Source of the DNA: a virus
Taxonomy: Duplodnaviria > Heunggongvirae > Uroviricota > Caudoviricetes
Reading direction: 5' to 3' (one strand)
Virus record (IMG/VR): IMGVR_UViG_2778261152_000002
Location: 1 to 17,392 of that record
DNA length: 17,392 bases
Positions 1,956-10,418 of this stretch are shown in pieces. Made by a program: the position numbers and the translations under genes. Below the pieces are notes generated by a model. It searched no databases, had not been told where the DNA came from, and was given only the letters and a program-made list of their open reading frames with translations. Every line of letters begins with the position of its first letter. Position 1 is the stretch's first letter.

Positions 1956-2984
1956 ATGGCTACACTGGACGCATTCAGTAGAGTAATAACTCATCATACT
2001 ATTACGATCGATACACAATACCGTACACAGAAAATTGATGATAGCATCAGATCGAACTGTGTTTGCCCGGTACCAACAATGCGTGAACTTGCTTCTAAAA
2101 TAGTACGTTGTAAAGCAATGATGCACAGTTATGAAAAAGGAGACTTAGTTTTAACTTTGCAAGATGTAATCTTCTTATCAAACAGAGCCGATAAAAAACC
2201 CAGCCATCTTGGTCTTTTAATTAATGCTGTAGATAAAAATGGAAGCACTACTGTGTTAAAAAACATTAATACAGATGTTCGTACCGAAATATCACCAAAA
2301 CATGAGGAAGGTGAAGGTTACGAAGTTTCTTCTCATATGATTATTTCTCTAGACGGAAATATGCGAACCTATGACATGAGTTTTATGCCAATACCAGGAG
2401 TTTCCACAGCAAAAATAAATGGTTTCCTGAATAAAGTTCTCTTTAACGTAGCCAAAGATAATGAAGATATCTTTTCATGTAACACTTTAACAAATGAAGT
2501 ATCAAGTTTAACAAAGAAAAAAATAAAAGTATTATACAAGCCAGTCTTTGATATATCTGGAAAGTTAGATGAAGATTTGTTCAATAAAATAAATAAAGAA
2601 GGACTTTCTGATGTCGTTTTGGTAAAGAATGAATACAGAACTATTAATGCGCCAGATGTTAACGCGGCTATTATTCCTAAAGAAAGTACTTTACGCTTAG
2701 TACCAAACCATGGCCCCAACAATGTCCTTGGATGGATAAAATCTGTCTCAAACTTCTTTAAAGAAGATAAAAATGGAGGTTATGACTTAATAAAAATAAA
2801 ATTCAAAGAGCCAGAGACAGGATTCACAAGACAAGTTGACCTTCAAACTTCAAATGTAAGGCTCGATGGGCTGGAAAAAACATTTATCAAAAAGAGTGTA
2901 ATAAATGGTTTTTCTTCGCGCTTAAAGGATTCTTATGATAGTATTAACATGGAGTTTGTGAATAAGATTATCGAGGTCATGTGA
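1956..2984 (+). CDS. Hypothetical soluble protein, first gene of AT-rich two-gene cassette
   Basis: 342-aa ORF, ATG 1956, TGA 2982-2984. K/N/D/I-rich, no TM segments, no nucleotide-binding or catalytic motif I can recognise. Markedly lower G+C than flanking phage genes. Opposite strand to the surrounding late operon. Confidence 0.7.
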   Translation: MATLDAFSRVITHHTITIDTQYRTQKIDDSIRSNCVCPVPTMRELASKIVRCKAMMHSYEKGDLVLTLQDVIFLSNRADKKPSHLGLLINAVDKNGSTTVLKNINTDVRTEISPKHEEGEGYEVSSHMIISLDGNMRTYDMSFMPIPGVSTAKINGFLNKVLFNVAKDNEDIFSCNTLTNEVSSLTKKKIKVLYKPVFDISGKLDEDLFNKINKEGLSDVVLVKNEYRTINAPDVNAAIIPKESTLRLVPNHGPNNVLGWIKSVSNFFKEDKNGGYDLIKIKFKEPETGFTRQVDLQTSNVRLDGLEKTFIKKSVINGFSSRLKDSYDSINMEFVNKIIEVM

Positions 2985-2991
2985 GGCTAAT

Positions 2992-3567
2992 ATGATTAGT
3001 ATATTTTCACATTTATTTAGACCGTTTGGTTACCTTTTCATTAAGGGAATTAGTGGTAAGTGCGCATACGATTTTTATGCACCTGCCGGGCTTGCTGTGA
3101 TTTCTTTTTTTTACTTTTATTTATTTAAAATACCCACATCAGACCTACTAAAAGATGGCGGCTTTATTAAGTCTATATCTGGATTTGTATCAAATCTGCC
3201 AGGTTTTTATATAGCAGCTCTTGCAGCAATAGCCACTTTCAACAGAGAACAAATTGACTACCCTCTGATAGGAACTAATGGCACGCCTTTTATTAAAATT
3301 ACACGAACAAAAGAAAATGGTAGAATTGTTGACACTCAAGAGAAACTTACCAGAAGATTATTTCTGTGCATGTTATTTTCATTTTTAACTGCCCTCAGCA
3401 TATGCATAGTGATTTTCAACGCTTTTATCACACCACTAATAAACATACTGAATAATGATATAGCAAACTGGTGCTATATCATTATCTTTTTATTCCTTAC
3501 ATGGCAAATGCTTGTTTCAACATTTTTTGGACTATACTATCTTGGTGATAGGATTCACATTAATTAA
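2992..3567 (+). CDS. Hypothetical integral membrane protein (about 4 TM helices), second gene of cassette
   Basis: 191 aa. ATG 2992 is 7 nt after the upstream stop, with SD GAGG overlapping that stop (translational coupling). Four hydrophobic stretches (about residues 22-45, 62-85, 125-150, 160-185) separated by a charged loop. Confidence 0.7.
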   Translation: MISIFSHLFRPFGYLFIKGISGKCAYDFYAPAGLAVISFFYFYLFKIPTSDLLKDGGFIKSISGFVSNLPGFYIAALAAIATFNREQIDYPLIGTNGTPFIKITRTKENGRIVDTQEKLTRRLFLCMLFSFLTALSICIVIFNAFITPLINILNNDIANWCYIIIFLFLTWQMLVSTFFGLYYLGDRIHIN

Positions 3568-7618: not shown

Positions 7619-8560
7619 TCACCCCCTGAATCCTGCCGGGATCTGGCTGTAGTCCACGTTGTCGTAACTGGCTTTGAAGTACGGGTCTTCACGTTTTTCT
7701 GTGTGCGTGCTGACGGACGGCGATAAGCGCAGGGAAAGCTCATCCCATTTTTCCCGCAACTTCGACGGGCTGAGCACGTTACGGCACCAGAACGGATCGC
7801 GGCTGACGCGGCTGTACATCTCGCAGATTTGTTTGTGAGTACGACCATCCTGCACACACATCAGGCGAATTTCGTTTGCCCATGCTGTCCAGTTCGGTTC
7901 TTTGGGACGAACCACCTCGCCGTCACATTCGGCGGCCTGCTCGTACAGGGCAATGATTTTTTTCCAGAGCCACTGTGCGCAGGTCAAATCATCCTGCGTT
8001 CCCCACTGGCGCTTTTTAGGGCTGAATACAACCGCATCAGGATGGCGAGTTAAAAAATCCTGTTCAGCCGTCTGCGTGTCCGGTTGCGAAGCGTCCGGAC
8101 GAGAAGGTTTTTTATCTGACGGATCATGTTTTGATTTTACTGACGGATCCCCGCCAGATTCTGACGGGTGAAAACCCGCTTTTTTGCCAGATTTCGACGC
8201 ATCAAATTTTGACGGGTCAGATTTTGATGCGTCAGATTTTGACGGGTCAGAATCTGACAGTTGAGAAAATGCCGCTGCCTGAAGCTTCGCAACGTTAAGC
8301 TGATAAACATTCGACGCATTGCGGTTACCCTGGCGACGCGCCTTACGCGTTAACCAGCCTTCTGCTTCCAGCCGTGCGATAGCCGTCCTGACGGTACTCA
8401 TCCCCGCGCCAATCTGACGGGCAATAGTTTCAATTGATGGCCAGCACACACCTTCGTCATTACTGAAATCAGCCAGGCGGGCCATAATTGCCACGCTGGA
8501 TAATTTCATGCCTGATGCAGCGCAACCATCCCATACATAGCCGGTTAATTTAGTGCTCAT
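7619..8560 (-). CDS. Replication initiator (O-like): N-terminal HTH, iteron-encoded linker, DnaT-like C-terminal domain
   Basis: 313 aa. N-terminal winged-helix-like segment, central pentapeptide repeats (DPSKS DASKS DPSKF DASKS) encoded by the 15-bp DNA repeats, C-terminus ending ...YSQIPAGFRG like the C-terminus of primosomal protein DnaT (recalled). ATG 8558-8560 with SD GAGG. Confidence 0.8.
   Translation of the reverse strand: MSTKLTGYVWDGCAASGMKLSSVAIMARLADFSNDEGVCWPSIETIARQIGAGMSTVRTAIARLEAEGWLTRKARRQGNRNASNVYQLNVAKLQAAAFSQLSDSDPSKSDASKSDPSKFDASKSGKKAGFHPSESGGDPSVKSKHDPSDKKPSRPDASQPDTQTAEQDFLTRHPDAVVFSPKKRQWGTQDDLTCAQWLWKKIIALYEQAAECDGEVVRPKEPNWTAWANEIRLMCVQDGRTHKQICEMYSRVSRDPFWCRNVLSPSKLREKWDELSLRLSPSVSTHTEKREDPYFKASYDNVDYSQIPAGFRG
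8114..8260. repeat. Iteron array (candidate replication origin) inside the initiator gene
   Basis: At least five tandem 15-bp units (CCAGATTTCGACGCA, TCAAATTTTGACGGG, TCAGATTTTGATGCG, TCAGATTTTGACGGG, TCAGAATCTGACAG) at 8187-8260, plus degenerate copies at 8114-8170. Analogous to lambda ori inside gene O. Confidence 0.6.
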
Positions 8561-8569
8561 GACCGACCT

Positions 8570-8908
8570 CTATTTCCCTGAATTTACGACGAAACTGTTC
8601 GAGCGGGCTGAAGCACTCATGCTCATAGCCTTCGCGGAGGTAGATAACTCGTTGTGTTTCCGGCTCCCAACGAATGACTCTGACGGGCACTCCGTAGTGA
8701 TCTTTGAACCAGCGGTTAACTTGTCGCAAAGGACTGTCTCCTTCTGCCGGTTGAAATCACCCACAGCCCACTCAGCAAAGCTGTGGGTTACAATTTCCCT
8801 GTCACCTGGTACATTAACTGCATAGCAATACTCCACCTTCGCTTTTCCACCCGGTACAGGAAGCGCAATCAGTTGCGAGCGACGGTAGTGTGTTGTTAAA
8901 CTGTTCAT
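8570..8908 (-). CDS. Hypothetical phage protein between cII-like gene and initiator; possible frameshift
   Basis: ATG 8906-8908 overlaps the upstream stop. The N-terminal 53 aa look protein-like; the rest of this frame is Ser-rich and low complexity, while an alternative frame open from about 8746 to a TAA at 8550-8552 encodes a more protein-like tail. Confidence 0.45.
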
Positions 8909-9513
8909 GCGTTAGTTTCTCCACAGTCACGACACGCCACGGCGCCCGGAGCTGCACACTCGCGGGCGTCATTACTTTCTGAAATGCAAAAGATTTTGTA
9001 GACCAGTGCTGCATGCTCCTGCAGCTTCGAAATTGAGAGATACAGCTCGTCGTTAATTGCTGTCTTCTCATGCGGTTCCACCACACCGTCTTCGATTGCC
9101 GAACGAATCTGTCTGGAATAACTGCCAATTTGTTCAATGACTTCCAGCAGGCGCTGGTTAATATCGGCGTTGTCCACATCCTCGACGTCAGGAAGAGACA
9201 CAAAGACGCCATTTGCAGACTGCGCCACAGCGTCAGCAATGAAGTGAGTTCCACCAGCACGTTGCAAAATCATTGCCCATCCCAGCGGGAAAATCTGATC
9301 GCCATCGGCACGAAGGCGGTTAAATAATGCGTTTTCTGTTACATCCAGCCAGTCAGCTGCTTCAGCGTAACCACCCGGCAACGCTGCGATAGTTTTTCTG
9401 ACAGCTTTCACGTACCACTCAGGCTGTTTTTCTACTTTCCAGTGATGCTTACCCACGGTTAGCCTCATCGTTCTGTGGTTTCTGTTAATCGATTTATCCA
9501 TTAGATTTTTCAT
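8905..9513 (-). CDS. cII-position regulatory protein (CII/CP76- or YdaT-like), start uncertain
   Basis: ORF is open from a GTG at 9570; candidate ATG starts at 9513, 9501 and 9468, none with a strong SD. C-terminus has a C-x7-C-x7-C-x2-C cluster. Function inferred mainly from position downstream of cro. Confidence 0.5.
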
Positions 9514-9694
9514 AAAGCTCAGGTTTAAATGGCAACCGTCCGCAAGTTCTATATGCAGCTTCTGCTGCACGTCCTTTTGGAATTAACTGGCCCGGACGGT
9601 TTCGCCACTGATAAACGGCTTCAGTTGTTATGCCGAAAAAAGCAGCAACTTTCTCAATACTGCCGAAGTAGCTTTCGATATCGTCAGTTGTCAT
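9494..9694 (-). CDS. cro: Cro-like HTH repressor
   Basis: 66 aa, divergent from cI. HTH-like segment AAFFGITTEAVYQWRN. ATG 9692-9694 with SD GGAGG. Confidence 0.7.
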   Translation of the reverse strand: MTTDDIESYFGSIEKVAAFFGITTEAVYQWRNRPGQLIPKGRAAEAAYRTCGRLPFKPELYEKSNG

Positions 9695-9791
9695 ACGCCC
9701 TCCAAGCTAAGTTTTATTAGATGCTAATTACAAATCTATCTTTGGTCAATAAAAACTAAGATTACTTAGCAATTAAAGAAATGGTGCTCCT
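9695..9791. promoter_or_regulatory. Divergent cro/cI operator-promoter region
   Basis: 97-bp AT-rich interval between divergent cro and cI. Near-palindrome CTAAG-ATTA-CTTAG at 9756-9769 and CTAAG at 9707-9711 with partial inverted partners. Confidence 0.5.
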
Positions 9792-10418
9792 ATGGAAACG
9801 GTTGGTCAGCGTATAAAAGCTCTGAGAAGAGTTACCGGAACGTCCCAGAAAGAATTGGGTAAATTTTGTGGAGTAAGCGACGTTGCTGTGGGGTACTGGG
9901 AGAAAGACATCAATACCCCTGGTGGGGAAGCACTTTCGAAATTAGCGAAGTTCTTCAATACGTCAATAGATTACATTCTTTATGGTGCTGAGTTTGAAGG
10001 CAAACTCGTCACAAACATGCGCAGAGTTCCTGTAATATCGTGGGTTCAGGCTGGGCAGTTTACTGAGTGCAGGGCAGCAGAAGTGTTTAGTGAAGTGGAC
10101 AAGTGGGTAGATACATCATTAAAGATTGGTGATAACTCATTTGCATTAGAGGTTAAAGGTGACTCCATGACTAACCCTAATGGCCTCCCAACAATACCAG
10201 AAGGCGCAACAGTGATTGTAGATCCAGATGCAGAACCTCGTCATGGAAAAATAGTCATCGCTCGACTTGATGGAACAAACGAAGCTACAGTAAAAAAATT
10301 AGTCATCGATGGCCCTCAAAAGTTTTTAGTGCCATTAAATCCTCGGTATCCCAACATCCCTATCAATGGTAATTGCCTTATCATTGGTGTAGTCAAAGGA
10401 GTTCAATACGAACTCTAA
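9792..10418 (+). CDS. cI: CI-type prophage repressor (XRE HTH plus S24 LexA-like peptidase)
   Basis: 208 aa. N-terminal HTH (QKELGKFCGVSDVAVGYWEKD), Ala-Gly cleavage site in VQAGQF, catalytic Ser in GDSM and Lys in ATVKKL. Confidence 0.9.
   Translation: METVGQRIKALRRVTGTSQKELGKFCGVSDVAVGYWEKDINTPGGEALSKLAKFFNTSIDYILYGAEFEGKLVTNMRRVPVISWVQAGQFTECRAAEVFSEVDKWVDTSLKIGDNSFALEVKGDSMTNPNGLPTIPEGATVIVDPDAEPRHGKIVIARLDGTNEATVKKLVIDGPQKFLVPLNPRYPNIPINGNCLIIGVVKGVQYEL

What the first reader, a model, noticed from the sequence alone, without database searches (positions are those of the whole stretch)
8550..8908. Frame switch inside the small gene between the cII-like gene and the initiator
Seen: the 112-aa ORF has a protein-like first 53 aa and then a Ser-rich, low-complexity tail. 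An alternative frame open from about 8746 encodes a far more protein-like 56-aa tail (...[56 protein letters not shown]) ending at a TAA at 8550-8552 that overlaps the initiator start. That frame also has an internal TTG (8727-8729) preceded by AAGGAG. Inference: either a single-base indel (pseudogene or sequencing error) or two small overlapping genes.
Basis: seen in the sequence. Interest (0 to 1): 0.35.

Follow-up and report, generated by a model that had tools for sequence, protein, structure and literature searches.

The report
Small gene nested inside prophage ymfM
The apparent frame switch is not an error: a 59-residue gene (DUF4222) sits out of frame inside the second half of the prophage gene ymfM, so experiments that credit ymfM with blocking E. 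coli cell division have not shown which of the two proteins does it.

Summary
On the minus strand, the 112-aa ORF 8908-8570 is ymfM of an e14-like lambdoid prophage. The 59-aa ORF 8729-8550 (TTG start, AAGGAG 8 nt upstream) is the DUF4222 gene that NCBI's PGAP pipeline annotates (WP_001250269.1). There is no indel: the layout recurs in at least 1932 complete E. coli genomes and in many other Enterobacterales phages.

Selection switches frame near 8730. Upstream, polymorphisms are mostly silent in the ymfM frame (18 silent, 7 not). In the overlap, 14 of 15 are silent in the DUF4222 frame and change the YmfM tail.

The ymfM frame nevertheless stays open. All 98 distinct sequences with an upstream run-on ORF have no stop across DUF4222. 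Codons that would create a stop are absent (0 of 60, against 176 of 351 in neighbouring genes).

So both genes appear real: a conserved YmfM N-domain with an unconstrained, probably disordered Ser-rich tail, and a well-folded small beta-barrel protein nested in the -1 frame.

The K-12 reference annotates only ymfM ("cell division inhibitor"); PGAP annotates only DUF4222. As far as their descriptions show, every published filamentation construct carries both genes. Interest is moderate: a new example of a known kind of gene overlap.

The parts
8905..9456 (-). ymfL, a cII-like regulator (Phage_CP76 family). Its TGA stop (8907-8905) overlaps the ymfM ATG as ATGA.
   Evidence: Pfam PF06892 at E = 8.6e-14. 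PGAP coordinates come from the 100%-identical genome.
8570..8908 (-). ymfM ORF, 112 aa (ATG 8908, TAG 8572-8570). It is 97% identical to E. coli K-12 YmfM (b1148, 'cell division inhibitor YmfM').
   Evidence: It matches phrog_1170 over its full length at E = 3.8e-70.
8735..8908 (-). Conserved N-terminal module of YmfM (aa 1-58), under purifying selection in the ymfM frame. It occurs as a stand-alone 59-65-aa gene in Hafnia phage yong2 and Citrobacter phage phiNP.
   Evidence: Polymorphisms are 18 silent to 7 non-silent. It matches phrog_20047 (63 aa). AF2 pLDDT is 58-73.
8573..8734 (-). YmfM tail (aa 59-112): Ser-rich and predicted disordered. It is read in the +1 frame of the DUF4222 gene. 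Its amino-acid sequence is unconstrained, but the frame is kept free of stops.
   Evidence: 14 of 15 polymorphisms are non-silent in this frame. pLDDT is below 50 for residues 68-112. Stop avoidance is shown.
8738..8743 (-). Shine-Dalgarno sequence AAGGAG for the nested gene, 8 nt upstream of the TTG.
   Evidence: Relatives have GGAG, GGAGG or AAGG at the same place, followed by ATG, GTG or TTG.
8550..8729 (-). Nested DUF4222 gene, 59 aa, TTG start, TAA stop 8552-8550. The protein is identical to WP_001250269.1.
   Evidence: Pfam PF13973 at E = 8.6e-19. It matches phrog_1343. It is 88% aa identical to the Klebsiella phage copies where the DNA is 76% identical. AF2 gives pLDDT 84 and a small beta-barrel.
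8757..8759 (-). TGA in the DUF4222 frame that closes that frame upstream. It limits any N-terminal extension to 9 codons.
8567..8572 (-). The ymfM stop codon TAG, formed by the DUF4222 codons ATA-GAG. It overlaps the GAGG Shine-Dalgarno sequence of the initiator gene. NTA followed by A or G at this position recurs across lineages although the encoded residue varies (I, L or V).
   Evidence: column 54: ATA in 10 representatives, TTA in 2.
7619..8560 (-). Replication initiator (O-like; HTH_36 N-terminal domain). Its ATG at 8560 lies 9 nt after the ymfM stop and 11 nt inside the DUF4222 gene.

Best explanation
The region holds two overlapping genes in the early-right operon of an e14-like lambdoid prophage. 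It is not a damaged gene.

**Layout (shown).**
- ymfM (112 aa) starts at an ATG that overlaps the stop of the cII-like gene ymfL.
- Its first ~58 codons encode a conserved module.
- Its last ~54 codons run in the +1 frame across a complete, independently initiated gene for a 59-aa DUF4222 protein (AAGGAG, 8 nt, TTG).
- ymfM ends on a TAG that overlaps the Shine-Dalgarno sequence of the replication-initiator gene.
- The DUF4222 gene ends 11 nt inside the initiator gene.

**Selection (shown).**
- The amino-acid sequence is under selection in the ymfM frame upstream of ~8730 and in the DUF4222 frame downstream of it.
- The YmfM tail is free to vary in sequence.
- Stop codons in the tail's frame are selected against in many divergent lineages, so ribosomes most probably translate ymfM to its annotated end.

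**Inferred.**
- DUF4222 is made by internal initiation on the same mRNA.
- The ymfM frame is most likely kept open so that ribosomes loaded at ymfL/ymfM are carried to the start of the next major gene, i.e. translational coupling along the operon. I put this at about 55%.
- The alternative is that a disordered Ser-rich tail of any sequence is useful to YmfM itself (about 35%).
For: **Identity and annotation.**
- A genome 100% identical over the 551-base query annotates ymfL, DUF4222 (8729-8550) and the initiator.
- The K-12 reference annotates ymfM at the 112-aa ORF.
- Phage SfII annotates the 112-aa ORF.
- PHROGs hold separate families for both ORFs.

**The two modules are separable.**
- Phage yong2 has a stand-alone 59-aa YmfM-N gene directly after cII, with DUF4222 about 850 nt downstream.
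- Phage phiNP has the order cII, YmfM-N, rha, DUF4222, repO.

**Frame-specific constraint.**
- E. coli versus Klebsiella phages: DUF4222 is 88% aa identical, YmfM-N 61% and the tail about 50%.
- In 53 haplotypes the ymfM-only part shows 18 silent and 7 non-silent changes. In the overlap, 14 of 15 changes are silent in DUF4222 and non-silent in ymfM.
- K-12 differs from the window by 3 residues in the YmfM tail and none in DUF4222.

**The ymfM frame is kept open.**
- All 98 distinct sequences with an upstream run-on ORF have no stop over the first 50 DUF4222 codons. The +2 frame has 1-8 stops.
- P(open) is 0.02-0.11 per sequence under local codon usage.
- Even when each gene's own codons are only permuted, the product over 22 lineages below 80% nt identity is 10^-7.7.
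- Leu/Val/Ile codons ending in TA or TG before an A-initial codon: 0 of 60 in DUF4222 genes, 176 of 351 in the adjacent initiator genes (Fisher 8e-17), and 28 of 81 before C or T within DUF4222.
- At the dangerous sites GTC and GTT alternate but GTA and GTG never occur. At safe sites CTG and GTG are common.
- Where the run-on is absent, stops do appear: phiNP 6, L187 5, L165 and L169 3 each, and 5 sequences of the YeP2 group 1 each.

**Operon chaining.**
- The YmfM-like ORF starts as acgcATGAAC on the cII stop. It is 108-128 aa by the first in-frame start codon, or about 108-119 aa counted from the MNSLT-type Met.
- It ends between 21 nt before the initiator ATG and 11 nt inside the gene. DUF4222 stops 1-32 nt inside the initiator gene.

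**Structure.** DUF4222 is predicted with confidence as a small beta-barrel (pLDDT 84). The YmfM tail has pLDDT below 50.
Against: - There is no direct expression evidence (ribosome profiling or peptides) for either product. No paper in the searched library discusses the nested gene.
- The stop-avoidance statistics treat homologous sites in related lineages as independent. The P values are therefore too small, although the effect is all-or-none.
- Within E. coli the test has no power (P = 0.22).
- Three stand-alone DUF4222 groups (YeP2, yong2, PSTCR8lys) also have an open +1 frame without an upstream run-on. Part of the openness could therefore be inherited or intrinsic.
- The reason the frame is kept open (coupling or tail function) is inferred, not shown.
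- Homologues without a tail exist (yong2, phiNP, the YeP2 group), so the tail is not essential to the family.
Confidence: 0.8

Rival explanations
1. A single-base indel (real pseudogene or sequencing/assembly error) split one ancestral gene. The true product would be an in-frame YmfM-N plus DUF4222 protein of about 118 aa.
For: A few database proteins are such fusions: P0030, P0052, P0059, P0065 and P0090.
Against: - The fusions have different junctions and come mostly from Logan or ENA assemblies, as expected of sporadic errors.
- The two-frame layout is identical in 85 loci (53 haplotypes) without any indel.
- It occurs in 1932 complete E. coli genomes and across genera.
- DUF4222 has its own Shine-Dalgarno sequence and start codon, aligned across lineages.
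- Both modules exist as separate genes elsewhere.
Confidence: 0.02
2. Programmed -1 ribosomal frameshifting near 8730-8756 makes a YmfM-N::DUF4222 fusion in addition to YmfM.
For: - The DUF4222 frame is -1 relative to ymfM.
- It is open for 9 codons upstream of the TTG.
- A U UUC at 8755-8752 could in principle allow single-tRNA slippage.
Against: - There is no X XXY YYZ heptamer in the ymfM frame between 8760 and 8700 (read).
- No junction motif is conserved across the three N-terminal subtypes.
- In several lineages the DUF4222 frame is closed by a stop one codon before its start (L164, L168, L172, L178).
- The RNA around the junction folds no better than shuffles to a convincing degree (z = -1.8).
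Confidence: 0.03
3. Only YmfM-N and DUF4222 matter. The 54-codon tail of ymfM would be a meaningless run-on whose openness is an accident of DUF4222's amino-acid sequence and codon usage.
For: - The tail's amino-acid sequence is unconstrained and predicted disordered.
- Tail-less homologues exist.
- Within-gene codon permutation gives a mean P(open) of 0.48 per sequence.
- Three stand-alone DUF4222 groups are open in +1 without a run-on.
Against: - Codon choice switches with context. NTA or NTG before A occurs 0 of 60 times, against 35% in safe contexts and 50% in neighbouring genes.
- All 98 run-on sequences in at least 22 lineages are open.
- Stops accumulate where the run-on is lost.
- The NTA-R that forms the ymfM stop is kept while the encoded residue changes.
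Confidence: 0.12
4. ymfM (112 aa) is the only real gene, and the 59-aa ORF is a spurious call.
For: The curated K-12 reference and several phage records annotate only the long ORF.
Against: - In the overlap, 14 of 15 polymorphisms fall on DUF4222 third positions.
- DUF4222 is 88% aa identical where the DNA is 76% identical.
- The Pfam match is E = 8.6e-19.
- Stand-alone DUF4222 genes exist whose +1 frame is full of stops (phiNP, L187, L165).
- The fold is predicted with confidence.
Confidence: 0.02

Closest known systems
YmfM (b1148) of cryptic prophage e14, reported as the SOS-inducible division inhibitor SfiC (Ansari et al., bioRxiv 10.1101/2020.11.19.390815)
   Same: - It is the same gene: 109 of 112 residues are identical.
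- It has the same position between ymfL and the O-like initiator.
- Its ATG overlaps the ymfL stop in the same way.
   Different: - Here the prophage has an intact initiator, whereas in K-12 it is truncated and fused to a terminase gene.
- The paper treats ymfM as a simple single gene. Its pBAD24 clone of the ORF also contains the Shine-Dalgarno sequence, the TTG and 54 of the 59 codons of the nested gene. This is my inference plus the sequence.
Pfam DUF4222 (PF13973) / phrog_1343, small phage proteins of unknown function
   Same: - The match covers the full domain.
- The length is typical (51-70 aa).
- The invariant residues are present: D10, G13, V16, V18, V28, R32, Y35, C39, F46 and F50.
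- The location is typical: just upstream of, and overlapping, the replication-initiator gene.
   Different: In this lineage the gene lies wholly inside another ORF. In phiNP, EKP1 and others it stands alone.
Rz/Rz1 of phage lambda (a complete gene embedded out of frame in a longer gene; from established knowledge)
   Same: - A short gene with its own ribosome-binding site is nested in a different frame of a longer gene.
- Both frames are maintained.
   Different: - Rz1 lies in the +1 frame of Rz, and both products form one machine (the spanin).
- Here the nested gene is in the -1 frame.
- No functional link between the two products is known.
- The host ORF's overlapping part is unconstrained in sequence and is only kept open.
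Translationally coupled gene chains in the lambdoid early-right operon (overlapping stop/start signals such as ATGA; from established knowledge)
   Same: - ymfL and ymfM share ATGA.
- The ymfM stop lies on the initiator's Shine-Dalgarno sequence.
- The DUF4222 stop lies inside the initiator gene.
   Different: Here one link of the chain spans an entire other gene in a second frame.

Membership tests
Pfam DUF4222 (PF13973) | Profile match above the gathering threshold over the whole domain | tested here: met
   E = 8.6e-19, 67.3 bits against a cut-off of 27. Residues 2-53 match profile positions 3-52 of 53.
Pfam DUF4222 (PF13973) | Small stand-alone protein with its own start codon and ribosome-binding site | tested here: met
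   59 aa; AAGGAG, 8 nt, TTG. Relatives are 51-70 aa with ATG, GTG or TTG at the aligned position.
Pfam DUF4222 (PF13973) | Family-invariant residues present | tested here: met
   D10, G13, V16, V18, V28, R32, Y35, C39, F46 and F50 are invariant in an alignment that reaches down to 33% identity.
YmfM / phrog_1170 (e14 SfiC) | Full-length sequence similarity to K-12 YmfM | tested here: met
   phrog_1170 at E = 3.8e-70 over residues 1-112 of 112. There are 3 differences from K-12 YmfM in 112 residues.
YmfM / phrog_1170 (e14 SfiC) | Position: start overlapping the stop of the cII-like ymfL, upstream of the O-like initiator | tested here: met
   ATGA at 8908-8905; initiator ATG at 8560.
YmfM / phrog_1170 (e14 SfiC) | Inhibits FtsZ-ring formation and causes filamentation when expressed | not testable with these tools
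   Reported for the K-12 ORF clone. As described there, that clone also carries the nested gene.
Nested out-of-frame gene pairs (Rz/Rz1 type) | A complete ORF with its own start signals inside a longer ORF in another frame | tested here: met
   All but the last 20 nt of 8729-8550 lie within 8908-8570, in the -1 frame.
Nested out-of-frame gene pairs (Rz/Rz1 type) | Evidence of selection on both frames | tested here: met
   The DUF4222 frame shows amino-acid-level constraint. The ymfM frame shows stop avoidance across at least 22 lineages.
Nested out-of-frame gene pairs (Rz/Rz1 type) | Both products detected in vivo | not testable with these tools
   No ribosome-profiling or proteomic report was found.
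Programmed -1 ribosomal frameshift site | Slippery heptamer X XXY YYZ in the upstream frame at the start of the overlap, conserved in relatives | tested here: not met
   None is present between 8760 and 8700. The junction sequences differ between subtypes.
Programmed -1 ribosomal frameshift site | The -1 frame is open upstream of the nested coding region, so that a fusion can form | tested here: not met
   It is open for only 9 codons here. It is closed one codon before the start in L164, L168, L172 and L178.
Frameshifted pseudogene / assembly error | Intact single-frame homologues are the norm and the frameshift is private to this sequence | tested here: not met
   The two-frame layout is the norm. 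Single-frame fusions are rare and have differing junctions.

The most novel reading that the evidence does not exclude
The filamentation (SfiC) phenotype assigned to YmfM may be caused wholly or partly by the nested DUF4222 protein. The pBAD24 clone of the ymfM ORF carries the nested gene's Shine-Dalgarno sequence, its TTG and 54 of its 59 codons, which include the whole Pfam domain. Library clone D1-8E carries the complete nested gene. A deletion of ymfM would also remove it. The K-12 label 'cell division inhibitor YmfM' could then be attached to the wrong reading frame, and DUF4222, a widespread phage family of unknown function, would gain a function.
Probability: 0.3. Interest if true: 0.65.

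Novelty: new member of a known kind. Interest (0 to 1): 0.5.

Why it matters
- **Conflicting annotations.** The curated E. coli K-12 reference lists only ymfM ("cell division inhibitor YmfM"). PGAP-annotated genomes list only the DUF4222 gene at the same place. The comparative evidence says both reading frames are maintained, so each annotation is missing a gene.
- **An unassigned phenotype.** The genetics behind a 35-year-old phenotype (SfiC, SOS-inducible division inhibition from e14) has not been assigned to a reading frame. Single-base mutations that are silent in one frame and disruptive in the other can settle this directly.
- **A general point about overlaps.** An ORF can be kept open by selection while its amino-acid sequence drifts freely. 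This suggests that the act of translating through the nested gene, for example to couple translation of the replication initiator, is what matters.

Tried and rejected
- **Sequence search of DUF4222 against PDB chains:** no match.
- **Foldseek of the DUF4222 model against PDB and BFVD:** only generic small beta-barrels (KOW, Tudor, SH3, DUF1653), none at E < 0.001. No function can be inferred.
- **NCBIfam:** no model for either protein.
- **Literature:** five papers mention DUF4222, all in passing. None links ymfM to ribosome profiling. Mehta and Casjens 2004 is not held. Ansari et al. have no supplementary files held, so the exact primers are unknown.
- **RNA structure around the nested start and around the initiator start:** z = -1.8 and +1.0, so nothing convincing.
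- **Promoter and terminator scan of 8400-9800:** counts as in shuffles, and no internal promoter for the nested gene.
- **Stop avoidance within E. coli polymorphisms:** no power (10 of 97 silent changes would make a stop; P of seeing none in 14 is 0.22).
- **First IMG/VR scan with alignment A1:** returned only near-identical E. coli copies. These were useful for polymorphisms but not for diversity.
- **Programmed frameshifting and the indel reading:** considered and rejected (see the rival explanations).
Full report
**What is there**

All features below are on the minus strand.
- The window carries the early-right operon of an e14-like lambdoid prophage.
- A PR-like promoter lies at about 9749-9721.
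- The genes run in this order:
  - a Cro-like gene;
  - the cII-like gene ymfL (9456-8905, Phage_CP76);
  - the 112-aa ORF of the finding (8908-8570);
  - an O-like replication initiator (8560-7619);
  - a PerC-family gene;
  - a Dam methylase.
- The 551 bases around the finding are 100% identical to E. coli chromosomes and to phage vB_EcoM-689R6. They are 99% identical to Shigella phage SfII and 96.8% identical to e14 of K-12.
- The region occurs in 2647 of 5426 complete E. coli genomes. In 1932 of them at least 80% of the query is covered.

- The 112-aa ORF starts at ATG 8908, overlapping the ymfL stop as ATGA. It ends at TAG 8572-8570.
- In the -1 frame a 59-aa ORF starts at TTG 8729. AAGGAG (8743-8738) lies 8 nt upstream.
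- This ORF ends at TAA 8552-8550, 11 nt inside the initiator gene.
- That frame is open from 8756, not 8746.
- The last 54 residues of the long ORF include 12 Ser.

**Both ORFs are already in databases, but never together**
- PGAP annotates the short ORF as 'DUF4222 domain-containing protein' (WP_001250269.1) and omits the long one.
- The curated K-12 record NC_000913.3 annotates the long one as 'cell division inhibitor YmfM' (b1148) and omits the short one.
- SfII also lists only the long ORF.
- Pfam recognises the short ORF (DUF4222, E = 8.6e-19) and nothing in the long one.
- PHROGs have separate families:
  - the 59-aa protein (phrog_1343);
  - the 112-aa protein (phrog_1170);
  - a 63-aa form of its N-terminal part (phrog_20047).

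**The two halves are separable modules**
- Hafnia phage yong2 has a 59-aa homologue of YmfM residues 4-56 as a stand-alone gene directly after cII. Its DUF4222 gene lies about 850 nt further on.
- Citrobacter phage phiNP has the order cII, YmfM-N (about 65 aa, not annotated), rha, DUF4222, repO.
- DUF4222 also stands alone just upstream of the initiator in YeP2, EKP1 and PSTCR8lys.

**Which frame is under selection**
- Between E. coli and Klebsiella phages the DNA is 76% identical. DUF4222 is 88% identical, YmfM-N 61% and the YmfM tail about 50%.
- I aligned 85 near-identical loci (53 haplotypes, no indels).
  - In the ymfM-only part there are 18 silent and 7 non-silent changes in the ymfM frame.
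  - In the overlap, 14 of 15 changes fall on the third position of DUF4222 codons. These are silent there and non-silent in ymfM.
- K-12 differs from the window by three residues in the YmfM tail and none in DUF4222.

**The unexpected part: the ymfM frame stays open**
- In 28 loci from other Enterobacterales genomes and 80 more distant IMG/VR loci, an ORF starts as acgcATGAAC on the cII stop.
- From that Met (M-N-S-L/V/I...) it is about 108-119 aa long (up to 128 aa if the first in-frame start codon is taken).
- It reads across the whole DUF4222 gene in the +1 frame.
- It stops between 21 nt before the initiator ATG and 11 nt inside the gene.
- Its N-terminal half comes in at least three divergent subtypes, and mosaics exist.
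- Of 130 distinct DUF4222 coding sequences, 98 have such a run-on. All 98 lack a stop in that frame over the first 50 DUF4222 codons.
- The third frame has 1-8 stops.

**Null models for the open frame**
- With synonymous codons drawn from the window's own long ORFs, P(open) is 0.02-0.11 per sequence.
- When each gene's own codons are only permuted among synonymous sites, a conservative test, the mean P is 0.48. The product over 22 representatives below 80% nt identity is 10^-7.7.

**The clearest evidence is context-dependent codon choice**
- In the 22 representatives, Leu/Val/Ile codons ending in TA or TG never precede an A-initial codon (0 of 60). NTA never precedes G (0 of 50).
- The same codons make up 28 of 81 before C or T within DUF4222.
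- They make up 176 of 351 before A in the adjacent initiator genes (Fisher 8e-17).
- At the dangerous columns GTC and GTT alternate, so synonymous turnover has occurred, but GTA and GTG are never used. At safe columns CTG (9 of 13) and GTG are common.

**Further points, and a caveat**
- Where the run-on is missing, stops appear: phiNP 6, L187 5, L165 and L169 3 each, EKP1 2, and five members of the YeP2 group 1 each.
- The ymfM stop is made by an NTA codon followed by A or G (ATA-GAG, ATA-AAG, TTA-AAG, CTA-AAG, GTA-GCC). These use rare codons, and the encoded residue changes between them.
- These counts treat related lineages as independent, so the P values are overstated. Three stand-alone groups (YeP2, yong2, PSTCR8lys) are open in +1 without a run-on. 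The pattern in run-on sequences is nevertheless all-or-none.

**Structure**
- AlphaFold2 with a 30-sequence alignment gives DUF4222 a confident small beta-barrel: five strands and one short helix, pLDDT 84.
- Foldseek finds only generic KOW, Tudor or SH3-like barrels and nothing at E < 0.001.
- No PDB chain matches by sequence.
- YmfM is modelled poorly (pLDDT 54). Its N-part reaches 58-73 and residues 68-112 are below 50.

**Interpretation**
- The region is a nested pair of overlapping genes, not an indel.
- DUF4222 is the older, sequence-constrained gene.
- The YmfM tail is a run-on over it whose sequence is dictated by the other frame. The tail is nevertheless translated, because stops in it are selected against.
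- Why is inferred. All genes of this operon are chained by overlapping or abutting stop and start signals. The ymfM stop sits on the initiator's GAGG.
- In SfV, ST64B and Stx phages the same ORF stays open for about 100 further codons until it runs in frame into the Rha/antirepressor domain. Outside the DUF4222 overlap, that stretch shows no codon-position bias in its substitutions.
- This favours ribosome delivery to the next major gene (translational coupling, about 55%) over a role for the tail as protein (about 35%).

**Rivals**
- An indel or pseudogene, programmed -1 frameshifting, and a spurious DUF4222 call are each contradicted by specific tests.
- A meaningless tail that is open by accident remains possible at about 0.12.
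- Details are in the rival explanations and the membership table.

**Relation to what is known**
- ymfM has been reported as the gene for SfiC, the SOS-inducible division inhibitor of e14. The evidence is a pBAD24 clone of the ORF and a deletion.
- From the sequence, a clone of 8908-8570 also contains the nested gene's Shine-Dalgarno sequence, its TTG and 54 of its 59 codons, which include the whole Pfam domain.
- Library clone D1-8E (ymfL 142-185, ymfM, ymfN 1-92) contains the complete nested gene. The UTI89 screen region spans ymfN to ymfK.
- A deletion of ymfM would remove the nested gene too (my inference).
- No paper in the searched library mentions the nested gene in this context. The phenotype is therefore not yet assigned to a frame.

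**Verdict**
- The indel reading is refuted, and the overlapping-genes reading is supported and sharpened.
- This is a new, well-supported example of a known kind of arrangement: a nested out-of-frame gene, as in Rz/Rz1. It has one unusual property, a frame that is kept open while its sequence is unconstrained.
- It has a practical consequence for a published gene-function assignment.
- Interest is 0.5.

Noticed in passing
L037:1352-2188, L038:1358-2515, L039:1352-2503 (phages SfV, ST64B, Stx2a_1447): The annotated 'transcriptional regulator', Sb41 and 'antirepressor' genes start with a degenerate YmfM-like MNSLT N-terminus on the cII stop. They run over an unannotated DUF4222 gene in its +1 frame. 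They then stay open for about 100 more codons until the real Rha/Ant domain begins (MATVPTL...). Between ST64B and the Stx phage, substitutions outside the DUF4222 overlap show no codon-position bias. These 5' extensions therefore look translated or kept open, but are not constrained as protein.
   Followed up: partly
window 8188-8251: There are four and a third copies of a 15-nt unit (CAGATTTTGACGGGT) inside the initiator gene, encoding the PSKSDASKSD-type repeat. They look like iterons of an origin located within the O-like gene, as in lambda.
   Followed up: partly
L040 and L123-L146 (Yersinia phage YeP2 group): The YmfM-like ORF (subtype 'FRYER..CNHSRA..') ends 5-10 codons before the DUF4222 start. 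The old +1 frame over DUF4222 is still mostly open, but five sequences have acquired one stop each. This looks like recent loss of the run-on followed by decay.
   Followed up: partly
window 8718-8722 (TTAAC) and the aligned position in all relatives: DUF4222 codons 4-5 are almost always NTT-AAC or NTC-AAC. This gives a conserved (G/C)TTAAC in many lineages. It is explained here by avoidance of TGA or TAA in the ymfM frame, but a DNA-level site was not excluded.
   Followed up: no
window 8905-9570: The mechanical ORF for the cII-like gene extends to a GTG at 9570 (221 aa) and overlaps the Cro-like gene. PGAP starts ymfL at 9456 (184 aa), which fits the Phage_CP76 domain.
   Followed up: no
proteins P0076 and P0089: These are natural mosaics. 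A subtype-C or SfV-type N-terminus is joined to the e14-type tail and DUF4222 region at the conserved 'LC.(K/N)LT' junction. This indicates recombination at the start of the overlap that preserves both frames.
   Followed up: no
L008:2996-3679 (Hafnia phage yong2): The annotated 'Ash family protein' CDS begins in the +1 frame over the unannotated DUF4222 gene (open frame 2971-3177). This is probably an over-extended start call, or another run-on of the same kind.
   Followed up: no
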